From: Escherichia coli
Lineage (GTDB): Bacteria; Pseudomonadota; Gammaproteobacteria; Enterobacterales; Enterobacteriaceae
Reading direction: 5' to 3' (one strand)
Assembly: GCF_051903065.1 (NCBI RefSeq)
Contig: NZ_CP178438.1
Length of the DNA: 64,000 bases
Part shown: positions 23,946 through 47,572 of the stretch, piece after piece
Layout of the letters: every line of letters starts with the position of its first letter
Position numbering within the stretch: position 1 is the stretch's first letter
Notes under the pieces: model-generated
Told to the model about the DNA's origin: nothing
What the model saw: only the letters and a program-made list of their open reading frames with translations
Databases searched by the model: none
Made by a program: the position numbers and the translations under genes

Positions 23946-24805
23946 CTCCTGAACTACCAGAGTTTTTATACAAACTCGAAAACTACACCGGCAGTATTGT
24001 AACCCGTGAAGCTACAAAATTGTTGATGCTCACAGGGCTGAGAACAGTAGAATTACGTATGGGGGAATGGTGTGAGATCGATTTTACCCAAAAGATATGG
24101 GAAGTTCCTCCGACCCGGATGAAAATGAGGAAGGAGCATATCGTCCCTCTGTCAGATCAGGCAATCCAGTCTCTGCAAATCCTCAAAGAACTGACTGGAA
24201 GATACAGATACATCTTTGCCGGAAGAAATGATGTTAACAGGCCTATCAGCGATGCAAGCGTCAATATGGTTTTGAAGAAGATTGGCTATGACAAAAAAGC
24301 TACCGGGCATGGATTTCGTCATACAATGAGTACTGTTCTACACGAGCAAGGATTCAATAGTGCATGGATTGAAATGCAACTTGCACATACGGACAAAAAC
24401 AGCATTCGTGGTACATACAACCATGCTCGTTACCTTGAAGGAAGACGAGAAATGATGCAATGGTACGCTGACTACCTTGATGCTCTTCGAAAAGAGTCAC
24501 CAGCTATATAATCGCTTGATTTTAAAGGCTGACTTAACGATATCCCCCTGATAGTCATTTATCAGTTATCTAATTATTAAGTCAGCCATAATCCCCTAAG
24601 TATCATTCCTTAATCAGATTCAGCACCTTGTAATACGACCGGTTAATTTAGAAAGAGACGATAGATAAACGCTTATGATGAAATACTAAGAAATTACTTC
24701 AGGCTCTATTAACTGGAGCTGTAATAGACAATAATTTAAATAACGCAATAGTTATATTTATATCTTAATATAAATTTCCACTGTATTTAAGGTAATGACT
24801 CCAAC

Positions 24806-26330: not shown

Positions 26331-26616
26331 CGGCTAGCGCCAGCTAACCTATGCGGTACTGGCCTTGGTGCTAACCCGCGTTAAAGCTACCACGTTGATC
26401 AGAGCCTCTCTCCCGGAAAGTCATACTGTCTTACATATTAATCACTCAAAATAGAGTAAATAAAATCATACAACTAGAGAGTGATTATAATTGTTATTGA
26501 ACACTGGTTATCCCATTTTTGTTATATTGATCACAAAACCCTTCTTTTTATGATGATCTAAAAATAAATATTAAATATTGTGGTCAGGCCGCTAGACCAC
26601 AATAAGAGGAAATATC

Positions 26617-27906
26617 ATGAAAAGAAAAACCATGGGGTGGATTATCGTTTTTCTTCTGTTTATAGTTTACATGCTGAACTATATGGATCGTTCTGCATTA
26701 TCGATTACGGCCCCACTTATCGAAAAAGAGTTAGGCTTTAATGCTGCTGAAATGGGGATGATTTTCAGCGCATTTTTCGTTGGTTATGCTTTATTTAACT
26801 TCATTGGCGGTTGGGCCAGTGACAAAGTTGGACCCAAAACAGTATTTTTGGTTGCTGCACTGTTGTGGTCTGTTTTTTGTGGTATGACCGGTCTGGTCAC
26901 CGGATTATGGACAATGCTTGCCGTACGTGTTTTATTTGGTATGGCAGAGGGCCCGGTTAGTGCAGCAGGAAATAAAATTATTAATAACTGGATCTCGCGT
27001 AAAGAGTCGGCAACAGCTATCGGTATTTTTAGTGCTGGTTCACCACTTGGTGGCGCTATTTCTGGTCCGGTCGTTGGCTTGCTGGCAATATCACTTGGCT
27101 GGCGTCCGGCGTTTGGGATCATATTTATATTTGGCCTAGTTTGGGTATTACTGTGGTACTTCTTTGTCAGTGATAAACCGTCAAAAAGTAAACGTCTGGC
27201 AGCGGAAGAACGTGTCGATTTCGAAAACCATGACGATATTATTCTAGCCGAAGATGGTAAAGGTACACCTTCGCTTGGTTATTACATGAAGCAGCCGATG
27301 GTATGGGCGACCACGCTGGCATTTTTTAGCTATAACTATATTCTATTTTTCTTTCTTACTTGGTTTCCAAGCTATTTGAATCATTCATTACACATTGATA
27401 TTAAAGAAATTAGTATTGCAACTGTTATCCCGTGGTTTATTGGGGCAATTGGCATGGTGTTAGGTGGCGTCTGCTCTGACTTTATTTATCGTATTACGGG
27501 AAATGCCTTACTTTCTCGCCGTTTAATTCTCGGCAGTTGCCTTGCGGGGGCCGCGGTTTGTGTCGCTGTTTCCGGAACTGTTACCTCTATTGGTAGTGCG
27601 ATTACGCTGATGTCTGTTTCCTTATTCCTGCTTTATCTAACTGGACCTATTTATTGGGCTGTTATTCAGGATGTAGTGCATAAAGATAAAGTAGGTAGCG
27701 TAGGCGGTGCGATGCACGGTCTGGCAAATATTTCCGGCATTATTGGTCCATTGGTAACCGGTTTTATTGTCCAGTTCAGTGGTAAATATGATTACGCATT
27801 CTATCTTGCAGGTGCCATAGCAATCATTTCAAGTCTGCTGGTATTCATTTTTGTTAAAAATAAAGGATTGAAATTCAATGAAAGTCAAAGCTGTGTACAT
27901 CAATAA
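26617..27906 (+). CDS. MFS transporter, anion:cation symporter (sugar-acid) family
   Basis: 429-aa 12-TM ORF; N-terminus LNYMDRSALSITAPLIEKELGFNAAEMGMIFSAFF... resembles hexuronate/galactonate-type ACS transporters. Confidence 0.75.
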   Translation: MKRKTMGWIIVFLLFIVYMLNYMDRSALSITAPLIEKELGFNAAEMGMIFSAFFVGYALFNFIGGWASDKVGPKTVFLVAALLWSVFCGMTGLVTGLWTMLAVRVLFGMAEGPVSAAGNKIINNWISRKESATAIGIFSAGSPLGGAISGPVVGLLAISLGWRPAFGIIFIFGLVWVLLWYFFVSDKPSKSKRLAAEERVDFENHDDIILAEDGKGTPSLGYYMKQPMVWATTLAFFSYNYILFFFLTWFPSYLNHSLHIDIKEISIATVIPWFIGAIGMVLGGVCSDFIYRITGNALLSRRLILGSCLAGAAVCVAVSGTVTSIGSAITLMSVSLFLLYLTGPIYWAVIQDVVHKDKVGSVGGAMHGLANISGIIGPLVTGFIVQFSGKYDYAFYLAGAIAIISSLLVFIFVKNKGLKFNESQSCVHQ

Positions 27907-28903
27907 ACCTGGTGAAATTGCTACCCGTCTGGTCGATTATCCAGTAAGAAAAGATAATGAAGTTTTAATTAAAGTGGATGCAGCGGGAATTTGTGGTTCT
28001 GACATCGGTGCATTTCGTGGTACTAACCCACTGGTAACTTATCCGAGAATTATTGGACATGAAGTCACCGGGATTGTTCTGGAAACCGGTGAGGGGGTAC
28101 CACAAAATATCAAACAGGGCGACCGGGTTATTGTAGATCCCTATGTTTATTGCGGTCACTGTTATCCATGTTCTGTAGGTAGAACTAATTGCTGCGAGAA
28201 CTTAAAAGTCATCGGCGTACATATTGATGGCGCTATGCAAGAAGTGGTTTCGCATCCGGCTCACTTAATTCACAAAATTCCTGACAATGTACCGTCAGAG
28301 ATGGCGCCACTGGCTGAACCCTTAACTATTGCCCTACACGCATTACATCGAGCGCAATTGAAAGCAGGTGAACATGTCGTCATTATTGGTGCAGGCGCTA
28401 TTGGACTTATGGCGGCCCTGAGTTCGTTGAACTATAAAGCAACTCCCATTCTGGTTGATATTGTCGATGAACGGTTGCAATACGCGAAATCGCTCGGCGT
28501 ACCTTATGTAGTAAACTCCGCAAAAGCTAATGTTATTGAGGCAGTGAAAGATATTACACAAGGGACGATGGCTCAGGTTGTGGTGGAAGCCTCTGGTGCA
28601 AATAGCGCAATCAGAAGTACCCTGGATCTGGCCTCATTTGCAGGGCGTATAGCCTATACTGGTTGGCCAAAGCAGGAAACATCGTTACCAACTAATCTAA
28701 TTACCTTTAAAGAACTAGATTTACGTGGTTCCCGTACCAGTGCCGGTGAATTTGAAGAAGCCCTGCAAATGTTATCAACGCTGAATATTAATCCGGCTGA
28801 TATCGTGAGCAAAGTCGTGACAATAGATGAAGTTCCTGAGGCTGTAAAAGAGTTAGATCAATTTCCGGAACGCTATCTGAAAATTAACGTGAAATTCATT
28901 TAA
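27878..28903 (+). CDS. Zn-dependent medium-chain alcohol/polyol (sugar-acid) dehydrogenase
   Basis: 341-aa ORF with GHEVTG zinc-binding motif, CGHCYPC structural-zinc cysteines and GAGAIG Rossmann motif; overlaps transporter by 29 bp. Confidence 0.8.
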   Translation: MKVKAVYINKPGEIATRLVDYPVRKDNEVLIKVDAAGICGSDIGAFRGTNPLVTYPRIIGHEVTGIVLETGEGVPQNIKQGDRVIVDPYVYCGHCYPCSVGRTNCCENLKVIGVHIDGAMQEVVSHPAHLIHKIPDNVPSEMAPLAEPLTIALHALHRAQLKAGEHVVIIGAGAIGLMAALSSLNYKATPILVDIVDERLQYAKSLGVPYVVNSAKANVIEAVKDITQGTMAQVVVEASGANSAIRSTLDLASFAGRIAYTGWPKQETSLPTNLITFKELDLRGSRTSAGEFEEALQMLSTLNINPADIVSKVVTIDEVPEAVKELDQFPERYLKINVKFI

Positions 28904-28930
28904 TTATAATTAACAAAAATAAAAAGTCTG

Positions 28931-28959
28931 ACGCGTAGTGTATTCACTACGCGTTTTTT
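28931..28959 (+). terminator. Rho-independent terminator after the dehydrogenase gene
   Basis: Perfect 10-bp stem acgcgtagtg/cactacgcgt, loop tattc, followed by tttttt. Confidence 0.7.
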
Positions 28960-29393
28960 GTGTGCGCCGTGACTGGCGCTGTTCTTCAACTGTGGTGGCT
29001 GAAGAACGACTAAGAGGTGAAAGTTCTCCAAACACCCGGTGAGGGGAAATGTTAGCGGAAGGCAAGGATGTTCATCGCGAGGTGAAATCTGAAGGAAGCC
29101 GGATGCAAAATGCTGGCCTGACGAACAGGAAGCGGCTAAGGCGGCACAAATCACCAAAGCCCAATACTCACACGGAACGCGGTGACGTACAGCCGACAGG
29201 CATAAGCAGGAAAGTCGTGCGAATTACCCCGGGAGATCTGCCGCTCTGCCAGTGTGCTACCGACGCCGTAGTAGCGCTGCAAAACCGGCAGCATGAAGGG
29301 CCGAACATAATTAACCGTGATTAGGACATCCGAACCCGATGATGATTAATGAAGCATAAACGCAGGCAACTGCGGCCAGCGGCAGAAGAGACG

Positions 29394-30342
29394 GACGGCA
29401 TCCTGAGGTGTACTGGCAATAGCGGACACTACCATTTGTTCTTTTTTTAAGCAGCCATCTGATGATATTTTTCCCTGAAGGCTGCCGGGGAGATATTCCC
29501 CAGACGAGAGTGACGACGCTGACGATTGTAGAAAATCTCAATGTATTCCCGTATTACTGAGATGGCCTCATCCCGGCTATTAAAACGATAGTGGCTCAGG
29601 CTCTCATTTTTCAGCGTTCCCCAGAAGCTTTCCATCGGAGCGTTGTCGTAACAGTTACCTTTACGCGACATTGATGTTTTCAGACCAAACTGCTCCTGGA
29701 TGACCCGGTAATCGTATGCGCAGTACTGTGAACCTCGATCGGAGTGGTGGATTAGCCCAGCAGGTGGGCGCTGGCTCCTGAGCGCCATAAACATGGCTTT
29801 ACCTGTCAGCTCTTTTGTCATGCGCTCTCCCATGGCGTAGCCGACAATTTCGCACGTATAAACATCTTTGATGCCAGCGAGGTACAACCATCCCTCCTGT
29901 GTGGCAACATACGTCAGGTCCGCCACCCAGACCTGATTTGGTACTGTAGGAGCGAACGTCTGGTTCAGCAGATTTGGCGCAACTGGCAGATTGTGGCTCG
30001 AGTTCGTAGTCGCTCTGAACTTGCGTTTCTGCTTACAGCGTAGCCTTAGCTCCTTACGAAGACGTGCCAGTCGGTCACGACCAACGATGATGCCATTCTC
30101 TGCCAGCTCCGTCTGGAGCCGCCGGGTTCCATATGTTTCGCGAGTGCTGATATGTGCCACCTTAATCTCCAGTTTTAGCCGCTCATCACTTTGTTTTCTG
30201 TCTGAGGGGTCATGCTGTACCCAGTTGTAATAACCGCTCCTGGATACACCAAATACCTGACACATCGCTTCAATGGGAAATTGTTGTCGCCATTGTTCGA
30301 TTAACGCGTATTTTTCAGCGACTCCTGTGCAAAATACGCTGT
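29394..30342 (-). mobile_element. Right half of an IS3-family element (terminus tgaggtgtactggcaatagcggacact at 29394), including orfB 29447..30342, cut by IS30
   Basis: orfB with DDE integrase core ...HHSDRGSQY...; terminal repeat matches the IS3-family terminus at 45109. Confidence 0.7.
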
Positions 30343-31563
30343 TGTAGATTCAATCTGTCAATGCAACACCCCTTTCAATTATCTCTTTCGGTGTTTTGAA
30401 CTTCAGTGTCTTTCTCGGTCTGTTGTTTAGCTGAGCAGCAACCAGATCTAGTTCATGTTGAGTATATTGGGCAAGACATGTCTTTTTAGGAAAGTACTGC
30501 CGAATTAGCCCATTTGTGTTCTCATTTGTTCCCCGCTGCCAAGGACTCTGAGGATCGCAGAAGTAAACTTTAACGCCGGTGCTGACAGTAAATTCTAGAT
30601 GTCTGGCCAGTTCCATTCCTCTGTCCCATGTCAGTGATTTTCTGAGTTCTGACGGTAAACTCAGGAATTTGTCGGTAAGAGCCTGATTTACTGAGACAGA
30701 ATCTTTGCCCCTGAGTCTAAGGATGATCGTATAACGTGATTTTCGGTCTACAAGTGTGGCTATATGAGAGTTTTTTGTACCTAAGACTAAATCGCCCTCC
30801 CAATGCCCCAGAGAGCGTCTGTTATCGATATTTCGGGAACGTTCGTGAATTGGTGTTCCGTTCACTATGTTAATCGTACCTCTTTCGCCTTTGCGGGTAT
30901 GACGCCTGCCATGGCGAAGGCTATGCGACCGTCGCAGATGCTGTATATTCAGGTGGTGTAGCGCTTCACGGCTACGAAAGTACAGCGTTTTATAAATTGT
31001 CTCAGGTGATATTCGCAGCGTTTTTTGACGTGGTTTTGTTCGCCTTAACCATCCTGATATTTGCTCTGGAGACCATTTCATCTCCAGCTTTTCCAGAACA
31101 AGCTTTCGCAATGGTAAATTTTGATCCAGTAAGCACGGTTTTGGCCTTTTCGCCATTCTGTTGGCTCGGTTATTAGCATCAACAGCTTTGTAATAGCGTC
31201 TGCCCCGATTACGCTGAACTTCACGTGAGATCGTCGAAGGACTGCGATTCAGCGCAGTAGCTATCGCACGAATGCTCATTTTGGCTGACAAACCAGCTCG
31301 TATCTCCTCGCGCTCAGACAGTGTCAGGTGAGCTACAGCCCGCTTACGCTCATGGGGTTTTATGCCGCCAGTATCCCTTAACATAGTGAAGATCGTTCCG
31401 GGTTTTGAACCCAGGATATTCGCTATTTCACTGAAGCCTGTTCCGTTCTTCCATAGTTCAAAAACAGAGGCTTTTTCCTCTGCTGTAAATGTTCGTCTCA
31501 TTCAAAAAACCTCTGCAACCCCATGTTTTCACATAACTGTTGCGTTGACCAATTGAATCTACA
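30343..31563 (-). mobile_element. IS30 copy 1 (1221 bp) with intact 383-aa transposase (30350..31501)
   Basis: Ends tgtagattcaat...; transposase MRRTFTAEEKASVFELWKNGTGFSEIANILG... identical to copy 2. Confidence 0.9.
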
Positions 31564-31877
31564 ACGGCTTTTTTTAATATGTCCCGTTCGTCGGTAACCC
31601 GCTTCAGCTCTTTCTGGAGACGGCGGATCTCGGCCTGAGCATCTGACTGTTCTTTATTAGTGGAAGAATCCGGACCGTACTTCTTTATCCAGGAGTAAAG
31701 GCTGTGGGTGGTGATATTGAGACGTGTTGCAACGCTGGCAACAGAATAACCGCGATCAACAACCTGTTTGACTGCTTCAATTTTAAACTCTTCGGGATAA
31801 CGCTTACCGCTCATGGGCACCTCTCTTTAAGTCATCTTAAATGACTCTGAGGTGTCTATTAAACCTGTGGCGATTCA
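31564..31877 (-). mobile_element. Left part of an IS3-family element: orfA (31564..31814, ends ...ERDILKKA) interrupted by IS30
   Basis: orfA MSGKRYPEEFKIEAVKQVVDRGYSVASVATRL... with HTH; frameshift heptamer aaaaaag 4 bp before IS30 junction. Confidence 0.65.
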
Positions 31878-32271
31878 TTCGTCTTGTTTATCAGGTTATT
31901 GATGATATGTTAATTATTGCGGTAGTCGCAGTAGGTAAACGTGAACGTAGCAACGTTTATCATCTCGCCAGTGAGCGGATGAAATAATATCCCTGTCAGC
32001 ACTCTTTTTTATCTGCTGCCGTTTTTTCCGGTGATTTTTTTCTGCATGCAGAAAAAAGCCTGCCCGGAGGGCAGGCATGAAAGACAATCGCACAGTTAGT
32101 GTTGAAATTAATGATATCACGCATTATACCCGGTGGATACACAAACCATCCCATGTAAATGCACTGGCATCCTAATCTACGTCTGATAACAACTGCAATG
32201 GCTGGACCTGTGATTTAAGAGAAAGTTATTATGTTTATTGAATATAACCGAAGTGATAAATAAAAGTATTA

Positions 32272-32460
32272 TCACCTGTAATATTTATGCTTATTGCGTG
32301 GTTTTATCTGGTTATATAAAGCACAGATGTTCTCATTATTTTCTGAAAAATAACCATATGGATCGATTTCCCCCACCCAGCCGAAGCGGTTCGGCTCGTT
32401 CGGCGTGTCGTCGACACTGAAGCGCTTATCCACTTCGTTCCAGCGGTAAGAGTCGTCGCT
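32272..32460 (-). pseudogene. C-terminal fragment of an unknown protein, truncated upstream by an IS256-like end
   Basis: Open frame ...SDSDDSYRWNEVDKRFSVDDTPNEPNRFGWVGEIDPYGYFSENNENICALYNQ... with no recognisable family. Confidence 0.3.
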
Positions 32461-32701
32461 GTCGCTGACGAATGCCATCGGGTCGCTAAACAGCGTGATC
32501 CGCCATGCGATCAAAAAGCGTAAGTGTTTCCGACAGACGAGCCGGTGAAAAAAGTGGTGTGTCTGGCAATACAGGCATCGTCCCCGAAATGGACGATGCC
32601 GTTAAAGGACTGGGGTATGGCAATAAGCCGCTTTATTATCGGATTCAGTGACCGCCTGGACGGTTACTTTTGAGAAAAGGCATTTACACACAATCCTAAA
32701 C
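32456..32701 (+). mobile_element. IS256-family element 3' fragment (transposase C-terminus plus terminal repeat)
   Basis: Sequence at 32611..32701 is near-identical to the IS256-like end at 44381..44460; antisense ORF shares the WRITLFSD-MAFV frame with 43500..43829. Confidence 0.5.
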
Positions 32702-32847
32702 AGACTCCTATATTTCAGATTTTGTTATCAACGCATTTCAAATCTCTTAGAAATCATTACTGTCGTCATATTTTCCGAGGCAGCTCACCACCTAACCATG
32801 TCTTATCAACAATATTTTGTGAAGGATATTTATAATGTAAAGACACA

Positions 32848-45108: not shown

Positions 45109-45435
45109 TGAGGTAGCCTGAGTTTAACGGACACTCCTTCCTGAAATAGAATGGCATCAGAAGGAGCTAATAATGAGCAGAAAAACCCAACGTTACTCTA
45201 AAGAGTTCAAAGCCGAAGCTGTCAGAACGGTTCTTGAAAATCAACTTTCGATCAGTGAAGGCGCTTCCCGATTATCTCTTCCTGAAGGCACTTTAGGACA
45301 ATGGGTTACCGCCGCCAGAAAAGGGCTCGGTACTCTTGGTTCCCGCACGGTGGCTGAACTGGAATCTGAAATTCTGCAACTGCGTAAGGCGTTAAATGAA
45401 GCTCGCCTTGAGCGAGATATATTAAAAAAAGCCGT
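45109..45435 (+). mobile_element. Left part of an IS3-family (IS600-like) element: terminus tgaggtagcctgagtttaacggacactcc, orfA 45173..45435 (ends ...ERDILKKA) interrupted by IS30
   Basis: orfA MSRKTQRYSKEFKAEAVRTVLENQLSISEGASRL...; terminus matches the one at 29394. Confidence 0.7.

Positions 45436-47572
<2,137 letters not shown>

What the first reader, a model, noticed from the sequence alone, without database searches (positions are those of the whole stretch)
26617..28959. Orphaned sugar-acid/polyol catabolic cassette: ACS-family MFS transporter plus Zn-dependent dehydrogenase
The two genes overlap by 29 bp (translational coupling) and end in a strong terminator. They resemble transporter/dehydrogenase pairs for L-galactonate- or idonate-type substrates. 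No cognate regulator is adjacent: the only candidate, a GntR/FCD-family gene, lies ~10 kb away across IS elements and the autotransporter. Upstream is an IS21 fragment, so the native promoter and regulator context may be lost.
Basis: inference. Interest (0 to 1): 0.45.

Follow-up and report, generated by a model that had tools for sequence, protein, structure and literature searches.

The report
Probable L-gulonate uptake and oxidation cassette
These two intact genes most likely let the E. coli strains that carry them import the sugar acid L-gulonate and feed it into the standard glucuronate pathway; their regulator is still present, only pushed 10 kb away by mobile DNA, so this is a sound but fairly ordinary accessory trait.

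Summary
An MFS transporter gene (26617..27906) and a Zn-dehydrogenase gene (27878..28903) overlap by 29 bp and end in a strong hairpin plus T-run (28930..28959).

- **Substrate.** The dehydrogenase is 64% identical over its full length to HiGulD, the experimentally characterised L-gulonate 5-dehydrogenase of Haemophilus influenzae. It is only 36% identical to LgoD, 35% to RspB and 26% to IdnD.
- **Pathway context.** In Citrobacter and Salmonella the same pair sits directly upstream of uxuA and uxuB, followed by a convergent GntR/FCD regulator. In Aeromonas and Gallibacterium the orthologue lies with uxuA, a second dehydrogenase and a TRAP transporter. The inferred route is L-gulonate to D-fructuronate to D-mannonate to KDG. 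E. coli supplies uxuAB itself (5404 of 5426 complete genomes).
- **Not orphaned.** The GntR gene 10 kb away (39140..39811) is the cognate regulator. In a 93%-identical E. coli variant the sequence runs straight from the terminator into it. Here a 10.16-kb mosaic (28960..39119) lies between them, and it begins with a group II intron inserted just after the terminator.
- **Regulatory region kept.** 182 bp upstream survive, including a 27-bp block with an inverted repeat that is invariant across five lineages.

This is a new member of a known kind, of modest interest. No activity was tested.

The parts
26435..26616 (+). Retained native 5' regulatory region of the cassette
   Evidence: Homology to the 93% E. 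coli variant (pF138-2, GZEC065) starts at 26435. The blocks conserved between species all lie within about 100 bp of the ATG.
26520..26535 (.). CRP-like site TGTTA-N6-TCACA (inference only)
   Evidence: GT.A....GATCAC is invariant in 7 sequences from 5 lineages while the flanks diverge. The match to the CRP consensus is judged by eye. Its distance to any -10 element is unresolved.
26576..26605 (.). Inverted repeat TATTGTGGTC-N9-GACCACAATA, the candidate operator of the GntR/FCD regulator (alternatively a 5'-UTR hairpin)
   Evidence: Perfect 10-bp arms. It lies inside 27 consecutive invariant columns across E. coli (two variants), S. enterica, S. diarizonae and Citrobacter. The core TGTGGTC-N9-GACCACA occurs once per locus and is unique in the window. 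A variant stands upstream of the Erwinia ADH-GntR-MFS locus. Folded as RNA it gives -14.9 kcal/mol, z=-4.1.
26617..27906 (+). ACS-family MFS transporter, proposed L-gulonate:H+ symporter
   Evidence: Pfam MFS_1. TIGR00893 scores 329 bits, below the cut-off. The best solved structure is DgoT, 6E9N. Identity is 25-32% to K-12 ExuT, DgoT, LgoT and GarP. It is 93-94% identical in Citrobacter and Salmonella, where it heads an MFS-ADH-uxuA-uxuB operon. dN/dS against the 93% variant is 0.04.
27878..28903 (+). Zn-dependent dehydrogenase, proposed L-gulonate 5-dehydrogenase (GulD orthologue)
   Evidence: 64% identical over 339 aa to HiGulD (Q57517). It falls in a 100%-bootstrap clade with HiGulD that excludes RspB and LgoD. 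Catalytic Cys, His and Glu, the structural Cys4 and GAGAIG are conserved. dN/dS is 0.09.
28930..28959 (+). Intrinsic terminator, probably bidirectional in the ancestral convergent arrangement
   Evidence: The hairpin also scores as a terminator on the minus strand. In pF138-2 it fills the 58-bp gap between the ADH and GntR stop codons.
28960..39119 (.). 10.16-kb mosaic inserted between the cassette and its regulator: group II intron fragment, IS3 interrupted by IS30, autotransporter, IS3 and IS4 fragments, isrC
   Evidence: The variant sequence is contiguous (L002 14522/14517) where the window has this gap.
28960..29403 (+). 5' fragment of a group II intron, starting GTGTG directly after the terminator T-run
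   Evidence: Rfam RF02001 matches 29071..29222 at 89 bits. It is 83-92% identical to intron copies that carry ltrA/maturase genes in over 1000 E. coli genomes. The remainder lies at 44318..45092 (-).
39140..39811 (-). Cognate GntR/FCD-family regulator of the cassette, displaced
   Evidence: Pfam GntR plus FCD. It is 92% identical to the regulator adjacent to the 93% variant and 73-77% to those of Citrobacter and Salmonella. It is present in 209 E. coli genomes against 204 with the cassette.
39812..40411 (-). Remnant of the GGDEF gene that follows the regulator in the variant; end of shared homology
   Evidence: blastn shows 90% identity to L002 up to 40411. tblastn finds only broken C-terminal pieces of the GGDEF protein.

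Best explanation
The pair is a compact, horizontally acquired L-gulonate utilisation module.

1. The MFS protein imports L-gulonate. This step is inferred from operon context only.
2. The Zn-dehydrogenase, a GulD orthologue, oxidises it at C5 with NAD+ to D-fructuronate. This is inferred from 64% identity to the characterised enzyme.
3. D-fructuronate is an intermediate of the resident hexuronate pathway. The host's own UxuB (fructuronate reductase) and UxuA (mannonate dehydratase) take it to KDG and on to central metabolism.
4. Expression is probably controlled by the convergent GntR/FCD regulator acting at the invariant TGTGGTC-N9-GACCACA repeat just upstream of the ribosome-binding site. 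The binding site is inferred.

In this window the regulator gene has been moved 10.16 kb away. The first of several mobile-element events there was a group II intron inserting just after the terminator. The regulator, the promoter-proximal region and both ORFs remain intact, so the module is probably still functional and regulated in trans.
For: - **Enzyme identity.** ADH is 64% identical to HiGulD (Q57517), against 35% to RspB, 36% to LgoD and 26% to IdnD. The GulD clade has 100% bootstrap support, and the Zn ligands and NAD motif are conserved.
- **The reference enzyme is characterised.** HiGulD was shown by kinetics, knock-out, transcript analysis and 13C labelling to convert L-gulonate to D-fructuronate with NAD+ (PMC5788505).
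- **Synteny.** S. enterica and Citrobacter have MFS-ADH-UxuA-UxuB followed by the convergent GntR. Aeromonas has KdgA-KdgK-UxuB next to ADH-TRAP-GntR-UxuA. Gallibacterium has UxuA-GntR next to ADH-TRAP-SDR-UxaC.
- **The two-gene form recurs.** It also occurs in the S. diarizonae type strain.
- **The host supplies the later steps.** uxuAB is present in 5404 of 5426 E. coli genomes.
- **The regulator is cognate.** Homology breaks exactly at 28959 and resumes at 39120, and the regulator has the same distribution as the cassette.
- **The regulatory footprint is intact**.
- **Purifying selection.** dN/dS is 0.04, 0.09 and 0.23 for the three genes.
Against: - No activity, transport or growth data exist for this protein pair.
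- 64% identity does not fix substrate specificity. LgoD also acts on L-gulonate, according to the title of Kuivanen & Richard 2014 as cited.
- The transporter has no characterised close relative: 25-32% to K-12 ACS members and below the NCBIfam cut-off.
- About 30% of sampled E. coli carriers have IS1 inside the MFS gene, which suggests weak selection in E. coli.
- The N9 spacing of the repeat is unusual for GntR operators (own knowledge), and it would also form a stable RNA hairpin.
- uxuAB of this particular strain lies outside the 64-kb window and was not seen.
Confidence: 0.7

Rival explanations
1. One reading: an L-galactonate or L-idonate type transporter/dehydrogenase pair (LgoT/LgoD-like or IdnT/IdnD-like), or a pair for some other hexonate.
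For: The best NCBIfam model for the ADH is PRK10083, the YjjN/LgoD equivalog, at 244 bits. ADH, RspB and LgoD form one 100%-supported superclade. Enzymes of this group can accept both L-galactonate and L-gulonate (title cited).
Against: The PRK10083 score of 244 is well below the 376 cut-off. Identity is 36% to LgoD and 26% to IdnD, against 64% to HiGulD. Orthologues are operonic with uxuA and uxuB, the fructuronate/mannonate branch, and not with uxaA and uxaB, the tagaturonate/altronate branch that L-galactonate needs (pathway logic from established knowledge). IdnT belongs to the GntP family, not the MFS (established knowledge).
Confidence: 0.12
2. The cassette is functionally inert cargo in E. 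coli: silent, mis-regulated or decaying inside an IS-ridden island, as the word 'orphaned' implies.
For: IS and intron debris lies on both sides. The regulator has lost its adjacent position and the shared terminator. IS1 sits in the MFS gene in about 12 of 40 evenly sampled carriers, some with deletions. The cassette is present in only 3.8% of complete E. coli genomes.
Against: Both ORFs here are intact and 100% identical in the top-ranked genomes listed (25 shown). dN/dS is 0.04-0.09. 182 bp of upstream sequence with all conserved motifs is retained. The regulator is retained in essentially all carriers. The compact two-gene-plus-regulator form also exists in S. diarizonae and on a mobile IS1 unit.
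Confidence: 0.15
3. Sub-hypothesis on regulation: the invariant repeat at 26576..26605 works as an RNA hairpin in the 5' UTR (stability or translation control next to the SD), not as the GntR operator.
For: It folds stably (-14.9 kcal/mol, z=-4.1) and ends 4 nt before the SD. The Erwinia variant changes one arm base in a way that keeps a G-U pair. The spacer/loop is also invariant among the enterics.
Against: The motif tracks the regulator clade rather than the MFS leader. It is found in loci carrying the 223-aa regulator type (the L036 contig ends before a regulator could be seen) and in the Erwinia locus, whose regulator is 39% identical. There it sits about 45 nt upstream of a different first gene. 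It is absent from the UxuR-type TRAP loci. No compensatory double changes were seen.
Confidence: 0.3

Closest known systems
Haemophilus influenzae L-gulonate cluster (uxuA, uxuR, gulD, gulPQM, kdgK, uxuB, kdgA; PMC5788505)
   Same: The first enzyme is the same: the ADH is 64% identical to HiGulD and falls in the same clade. The same downstream logic applies through fructuronate reductase and mannonate dehydratase, and a GntR/FCD regulator is present.
   Different: Uptake is by an ACS-family MFS instead of a TRAP GulPQM system. The regulator is a different FCD subgroup (31-34% to the UxuR-type regulators compared: E. coli UxuR, Gallibacterium and Aeromonas). The E. coli form carries no uxuA, uxuB, kdgK or kdgA of its own and must use the host copies.
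E. coli K-12 LgoT-LgoR-LgoD (L-galactonate)
   Same: An ACS-family MFS is paired with a Zn-dependent sugar-acid 5-dehydrogenase, and the product enters the hexuronate pathway.
   Different: Identity is 28% (transporter) and 36% (enzyme). The gene arrangement differs: lgoT and lgoR are divergent from lgoD. LgoR gave no BLAST match to the window regulator. The product there is D-tagaturonate, which goes through UxaB and UxaA.
E. coli RspA-RspB (PDB 4ILK)
   Same: RspB is the closest solved structure to the ADH (208 bits) and belongs to the same sugar-acid dehydrogenase superclade.
   Different: Identity is only 35%. RspB is paired with an enolase-superfamily dehydratase, not with an MFS. RspB's reported link to L-gulonate is my recollection and was not checked here.
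E. coli uxuAB-uxuR / exuT hexuronate system
   Same: It supplies the steps after D-fructuronate. In Citrobacter and Salmonella the cassette is fused to uxuA and uxuB genes that are 92% and 84% identical to those of K-12.
   Different: The window cassette adds an entry point for a hexonate, not a hexuronate. The MFS is only 25% identical to ExuT.
DgoT, D-galactonate:H+ symporter (PDB 6E9N)
   Same: It is the best structural relative of the transporter (138 bits). The TM1 Asp-Arg and TM4 Glu positions align.
   Different: Identity is 25%. The roles of those residues are recalled from the DgoT structure paper and were not verified here.

Membership tests
L-gulonate 5-dehydrogenase (GulD, EC 1.1.1.380) | Medium-chain Zn-dehydrogenase fold (ADH_N plus ADH_zinc_N) | tested here: met
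   Pfam E=7e-29 and 3e-26.
L-gulonate 5-dehydrogenase (GulD, EC 1.1.1.380) | Catalytic Zn ligands (Cys, His-Glu, Glu), structural Cys4 and an NAD-type GxGxxG followed by Asp | tested here: met
   GICGSD, GHE, AEPLT, CGHCYPCSVGRTNCC, GAGAIG and DIVDE all align with HiGulD.
L-gulonate 5-dehydrogenase (GulD, EC 1.1.1.380) | Groups with the characterised enzyme to the exclusion of paralogues with other substrates | tested here: met
   64% identity to Q57517 against 26-36% to LgoD, RspB, IdnD, Tdh and GatD. The clade has 100% bootstrap support in an NJ tree with 50 replicates.
L-gulonate 5-dehydrogenase (GulD, EC 1.1.1.380) | Genomic association with fructuronate reductase and mannonate dehydratase | tested here: met
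   Orthologues are operonic or adjacent in Salmonella, Citrobacter, Aeromonas and Gallibacterium. The genes are not adjacent in the window, but uxuAB is present in 99.6% of E. coli genomes.
L-gulonate 5-dehydrogenase (GulD, EC 1.1.1.380) | NAD+-dependent oxidation of L-gulonate to D-fructuronate | not testable with these tools
   This needs an enzyme assay.
ACS family of the MFS (sugar-acid:H+ symporters, DgoT-like) | MFS fold with a best match to the ACS / D-galactonate-transporter subfamily | tested here: inconclusive
   MFS_1 E=2e-65. TIGR00893 is the top hit at E=4e-98, but 329 bits is below the 395 cut-off. DgoT is the best PDB hit.
ACS family of the MFS (sugar-acid:H+ symporters, DgoT-like) | Conserved TM1 Asp-Arg and TM4 Glu (proton coupling and carboxylate binding in DgoT, from memory) | tested here: met
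   MFS D24-R25 and E111 align with DgoT D31-R32 and E118 in K-12 numbering.
ACS family of the MFS (sugar-acid:H+ symporters, DgoT-like) | Transport of L-gulonate | not testable with these tools
   The substrate is inferred only from operon partners.
LgoT/LgoD L-galactonate system | Equivalog-level similarity to LgoD (NF007489) and LgoT | tested here: not met
   244 bits against a 376 cut-off. Identity is 36% and 28%.
IdnD/IdnT L-idonate system | Equivalog-level similarity to IdnD (NF007375) | tested here: not met
   151 bits against a 469 cut-off. Identity is 26%.
GntR family, FCD (FadR-like) subfamily regulator | N-terminal GntR winged helix plus C-terminal FCD domain | tested here: met
   Pfam GntR E=3e-19 and FCD E=7e-22.
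GntR family, FCD (FadR-like) subfamily regulator | Binds a palindromic operator at the regulated promoter and responds to a pathway metabolite | not testable with these tools
   The candidate site is TGTGGTC-N9-GACCACA, identified by phylogenetic footprinting only.
Bacterial group II intron (terminator-associated insertion) | Domain I-IV ribozyme sequence and structure with a 5' GUGYG | tested here: met
   RF02001 at 89 bits, E=5e-17. GTGTG lies at 28960.
Bacterial group II intron (terminator-associated insertion) | Intact domains V-VI and an intron-encoded reverse transcriptase | tested here: not met
   Only fragments remain, at 28960..29403 and 44318..45092. No RF00029 hit was found. ltrA is present only in related copies elsewhere.

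The most novel reading that the evidence does not exclude
The MFS protein is the first ACS-family L-gulonate:H+ symporter. The two-gene-plus-regulator unit is then a minimal plug-in that gives about 4% of E. coli strains access to L-gulonate by borrowing the resident uxuAB genes. L-gulonate is an animal uronate-cycle metabolite, and the unit spreads on an argW island and on an IS1 composite transposon on plasmids. Control would come from an FCD regulator using an unusual 7-N9-7 operator.
Probability: 0.5. Interest if true: 0.4.

Novelty: new member of a known kind. Interest (0 to 1): 0.3.

Why it matters
If confirmed, two genes now annotated only as 'MFS transporter' and 'zinc-binding alcohol dehydrogenase family protein' in E. 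coli, Citrobacter and Salmonella would gain a specific function. It would also identify an MFS-type L-gulonate transporter; the only one characterised in the work found here is a TRAP system. L-gulonate is made by animal hosts from glucuronate (PMC6353982), so the module could give a small nutritional advantage in the gut or in tissues. Its presence on plasmids and islands makes that trait mobile. The locus is also a clear example of a regulator that looks missing but has only been displaced by a mobile insertion at a terminator.

Tried and rejected
- **LgoD or IdnD membership.** Rejected on NCBIfam cut-offs and identities.
- **A close characterised transporter.** None was found among the K-12 ACS members DgoT, LgoT, GarP and ExuT, all at 25-32%.
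- **Autoregulatory copy of the repeat.** I looked upstream of the regulator gene and elsewhere in the window and found none.
- **Sigma-70 promoter scan.** Not informative: 6 sites found against 6.1 expected. The exact promoter and the phasing of the CRP-like site stay unresolved.
- **Literature.** Searches on L-gulonate, gulD, L-gulonate 5-dehydrogenase and RspB found no description of the enterobacterial MFS-GulD pair. The library lacks many subscription papers, including older work on L-gulonate in E. coli and Salmonella that I recall only from memory.
- **Right end of the insertion.** I tested whether it (39119) is the intron's 3' end. It is not. The intron remainder lies at 44318..45092 (-), and the sequence next to 39119 runs into what looks like an IS4-family end after about 26 bp of unknown DNA.
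Full report
**Observation.** Two ORFs lie at 26617..27906 (429 aa) and 27878..28903 (341 aa) on the + strand and overlap by 29 bp.
- The first is an MFS_1 protein. Its best NCBIfam model is the D-galactonate-transporter (ACS) subfamily, scoring 329 bits against a 395 cut-off.
- The second has ADH_N and ADH_zinc_N domains.
- An 11-bp hairpin with a T-run at 28930..28959 folds at -17.6 kcal/mol, z=-5.
- IS21-type debris lies upstream.
- A GntR plus FCD gene lies at 39140..39811 (-), beyond IS3/IS30 elements and an autotransporter.

The description is accurate.

**Distribution in E. coli.** The unit occurs in 204 of 5426 complete genomes. It comes in two lineages.
- 155 records are at least 99% identical. 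These are chromosomal and island-borne, as in the window.
- 50 records are about 93% identical, and all 30 plasmid-borne places appear to belong to this group.

In the window, tRNA-Arg(CCT) at 22005..22079 and an integrase fragment at 24020..24511 point to an argW island. The 93% form sits on a 7.3-kb IS1-flanked unit, 'EAL-MFS-ADH-<GntR-<GGDEF-<LysE. This unit has identical ends on plasmid pF138-2 and in the GZEC065 chromosome.

**The regulator is not missing.** Homology between the variant and the window runs from 26435 to 28959 and resumes, in the same orientation, at 39120 and continues to 40411. In the variant the two segments are contiguous. The ancestral layout is therefore promoter, MFS, ADH, shared terminator, then a convergent GntR/FCD gene.
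- The window regulator is 92% identical to the variant's regulator and 73-77% identical to those of Salmonella and Citrobacter, which occupy the same position.
- The regulator segment is found in 209 E. coli genomes with the same split (160 at >=99%, 48 at 90-95%) as the cassette.

**What separates them.** The intervening 10.16 kb (28960..39119) starts with GTGTG directly after the six-T run.
- Rfam finds a group II intron D1-D4 match at 29071..29222.
- The fragment is 83-92% identical to introns that carry ltrA/maturase genes in over 1000 E. coli genomes.
- One full-length relative also sits directly after a hairpin and T-run, behind hdaA on a plasmid. This fits the terminator-targeting behaviour I know from class C introns.
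- The intron was later broken by an IS3 element. In this window it was broken again by an IS30-associated inversion of 31796..45432, seen by comparison with strain AMSCJX02. Its remainder lies at 44318..45092 (-).
- The right-hand junction at 39119 is not an intron or IS end, and I could not explain it.

**The promoter region is retained.** 182 bp upstream of the ATG are shared with the variant. An alignment of seven upstream regions from five lineages is divergent except for three blocks.
- GT.A....GATCAC at 26521..26534, a CRP-like TGTTA-N6-TCACA. This reading is inference.
- GTGATCT.AAAAT, a possible -10 region.
- 27 consecutive invariant columns, ATATTGTGGTCAGGCCGCTAGACCACA.

The last block contains the perfect repeat TATTGTGGTC-N9-GACCACAATA at 26576..26605. 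Its core occurs exactly once in every enterobacterial locus carrying this regulator type and is unique in the window. A related TGTGGTC-N9-GGCCACA stands upstream of an Erwinia ADH-GntR-MFS locus whose regulator is 39% identical. The TRAP-type loci with UxuR-like regulators lack it. I take it as the probable operator. It would also form a stable RNA hairpin 4 nt before the SD, so that rival remains open.

**Function of the dehydrogenase.** Homologues are widespread, and some JGI records call them L-gulonate 5-dehydrogenase. I recovered the H. influenzae protein HI_0053 (Q57517) from its cluster. This is HiGulD, shown by kinetics with NAD+, knock-out, transcript analysis and 13C labelling to oxidise L-gulonate to D-fructuronate (PMC5788505).

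| Compared protein | Identity to window ADH |
|---|---|
| HiGulD | 64% over 339 aa |
| LgoD | 36% |
| RspB | 35% |
| Tdh | 31% |
| IdnD | 26% |

In a neighbour-joining tree the enzyme falls in a 100%-supported clade with HiGulD and with the Mannheimia, Gallibacterium, Aeromonas and Clostridium homologues. RspB and LgoD are the next relatives. Zn ligands and the NAD motif are conserved.

**Synteny gives the pathway.**
- S. enterica and several Citrobacter species carry MFS-ADH-UxuA-UxuB with the convergent regulator. Those UxuA and UxuB proteins are 92% and 84% identical to the K-12 proteins.
- Aeromonas has KdgA-KdgK-UxuB next to ADH-TRAP-GntR-UxuA.
- Gallibacterium mirrors the H. influenzae cluster.
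- The two-gene-plus-regulator form also exists in the S. diarizonae type strain.
- E. coli itself carries uxuAB in 5404 of 5426 genomes.

The product D-fructuronate would therefore enter the resident pathway. This is an inference from established hexuronate metabolism.

**The transporter is the weak link.** It is 93-94% identical in Citrobacter and Salmonella. It is about 50% identical to MFS proteins of Inquilinus, Trinickia and Bacillus, each of which sits next to a more distant Zn-dehydrogenase. It is only 25-32% identical to K-12 ExuT, DgoT, LgoT and GarP. The TM1 Asp-Arg and TM4 Glu align with DgoT. Its substrate rests on operon context alone.

**Selection.** Between the two E. coli lineages dN/dS is 0.04 for the MFS, 0.09 for the ADH and 0.23 for the regulator, so the genes evolved under constraint. 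Against that, about 12 of 40 evenly sampled carriers have IS1 inside the MFS gene, so the trait is dispensable in many strains.

**Verdict.** This is a sugar-acid cassette, but the best-supported substrate is L-gulonate. The cassette is not orphaned: its regulator has been displaced and its regulatory region is intact. Literature searches found no description of this enterobacterial MFS-GulD unit. It is a new member of a known kind of system, of modest interest.

Noticed in passing
window 28960-29403 (+) and 44318-45092 (-); L033 3501-~5397: Fragments of a group II intron whose 5' end abuts the ADH terminator T-run. A related full-length copy with ltrA on plasmid JE86-ST02_p1 also sits directly after a hairpin and T-run (behind hdaA). 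Relatives occur in over 1200 E. coli genomes.
   Followed up: partly
window 30350-31501 (-) and 45498-46649 (+); segment 31796-45432: Two IS30 copies lie in inverted orientation. The DNA between them is inverted relative to strain AMSCJX02, where the IS3 element split here by IS30 is intact. This looks like an IS30-mediated inversion.
   Followed up: partly
L002 10307-18352 and L003 10307-18352: A 93% variant of the cassette rides on an IS1-flanked 7.3-kb unit (truncated EAL gene, MFS, ADH, GntR, GGDEF, LysE). The unit has identical ends on plasmids and in a chromosome next to the leuZ-associated integrase.
   Followed up: partly
E. coli hits H38, H41-H46, H58-H62: About 12 of 40 evenly sampled carriers have IS1A inserted in the MFS gene, some with an adjoining deletion. 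This indicates recurrent or clonal inactivation.
   Followed up: partly
window 39119/39120 junction and 38871-39119: The right boundary of the 10-kb insertion is not an IS or intron end. About 26 bp of unknown sequence separate it from what looks like an IS4-family terminus and transposase fragment.
   Followed up: partly
window 38481-38603 (-): Full-length match to the isrC Hfq-binding sRNA (150 bits).
   Followed up: no
window 32848-36345 (-): A 1165-aa autotransporter with Autotransporter, AC_1, PATR, VirG-insertion and Pertactin domains, embedded between IS fragments.
   Followed up: no
window 22005-22079 (+) and 24020-24511 (+): tRNA-Arg(CCT) followed by a truncated phage-type integrase. 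The IS-rich region containing the cassette appears to be an argW-associated island.
   Followed up: no
E. coli genomes: The K-12 uxuAB query also hit 14 plasmid places and 9 records at 80-90% identity. These may be second uxuAB copies, or the four-gene MFS-ADH-uxuA-uxuB cassette present in some E. coli.
   Followed up: no
L036 5690-5735: In an unnamed 82%-identical homologue locus the conserved repeat carries a 7-bp duplication of the right arm (GACCACC AGACCACAA), and the MFS gene does not overlap the ADH gene.
   Followed up: no
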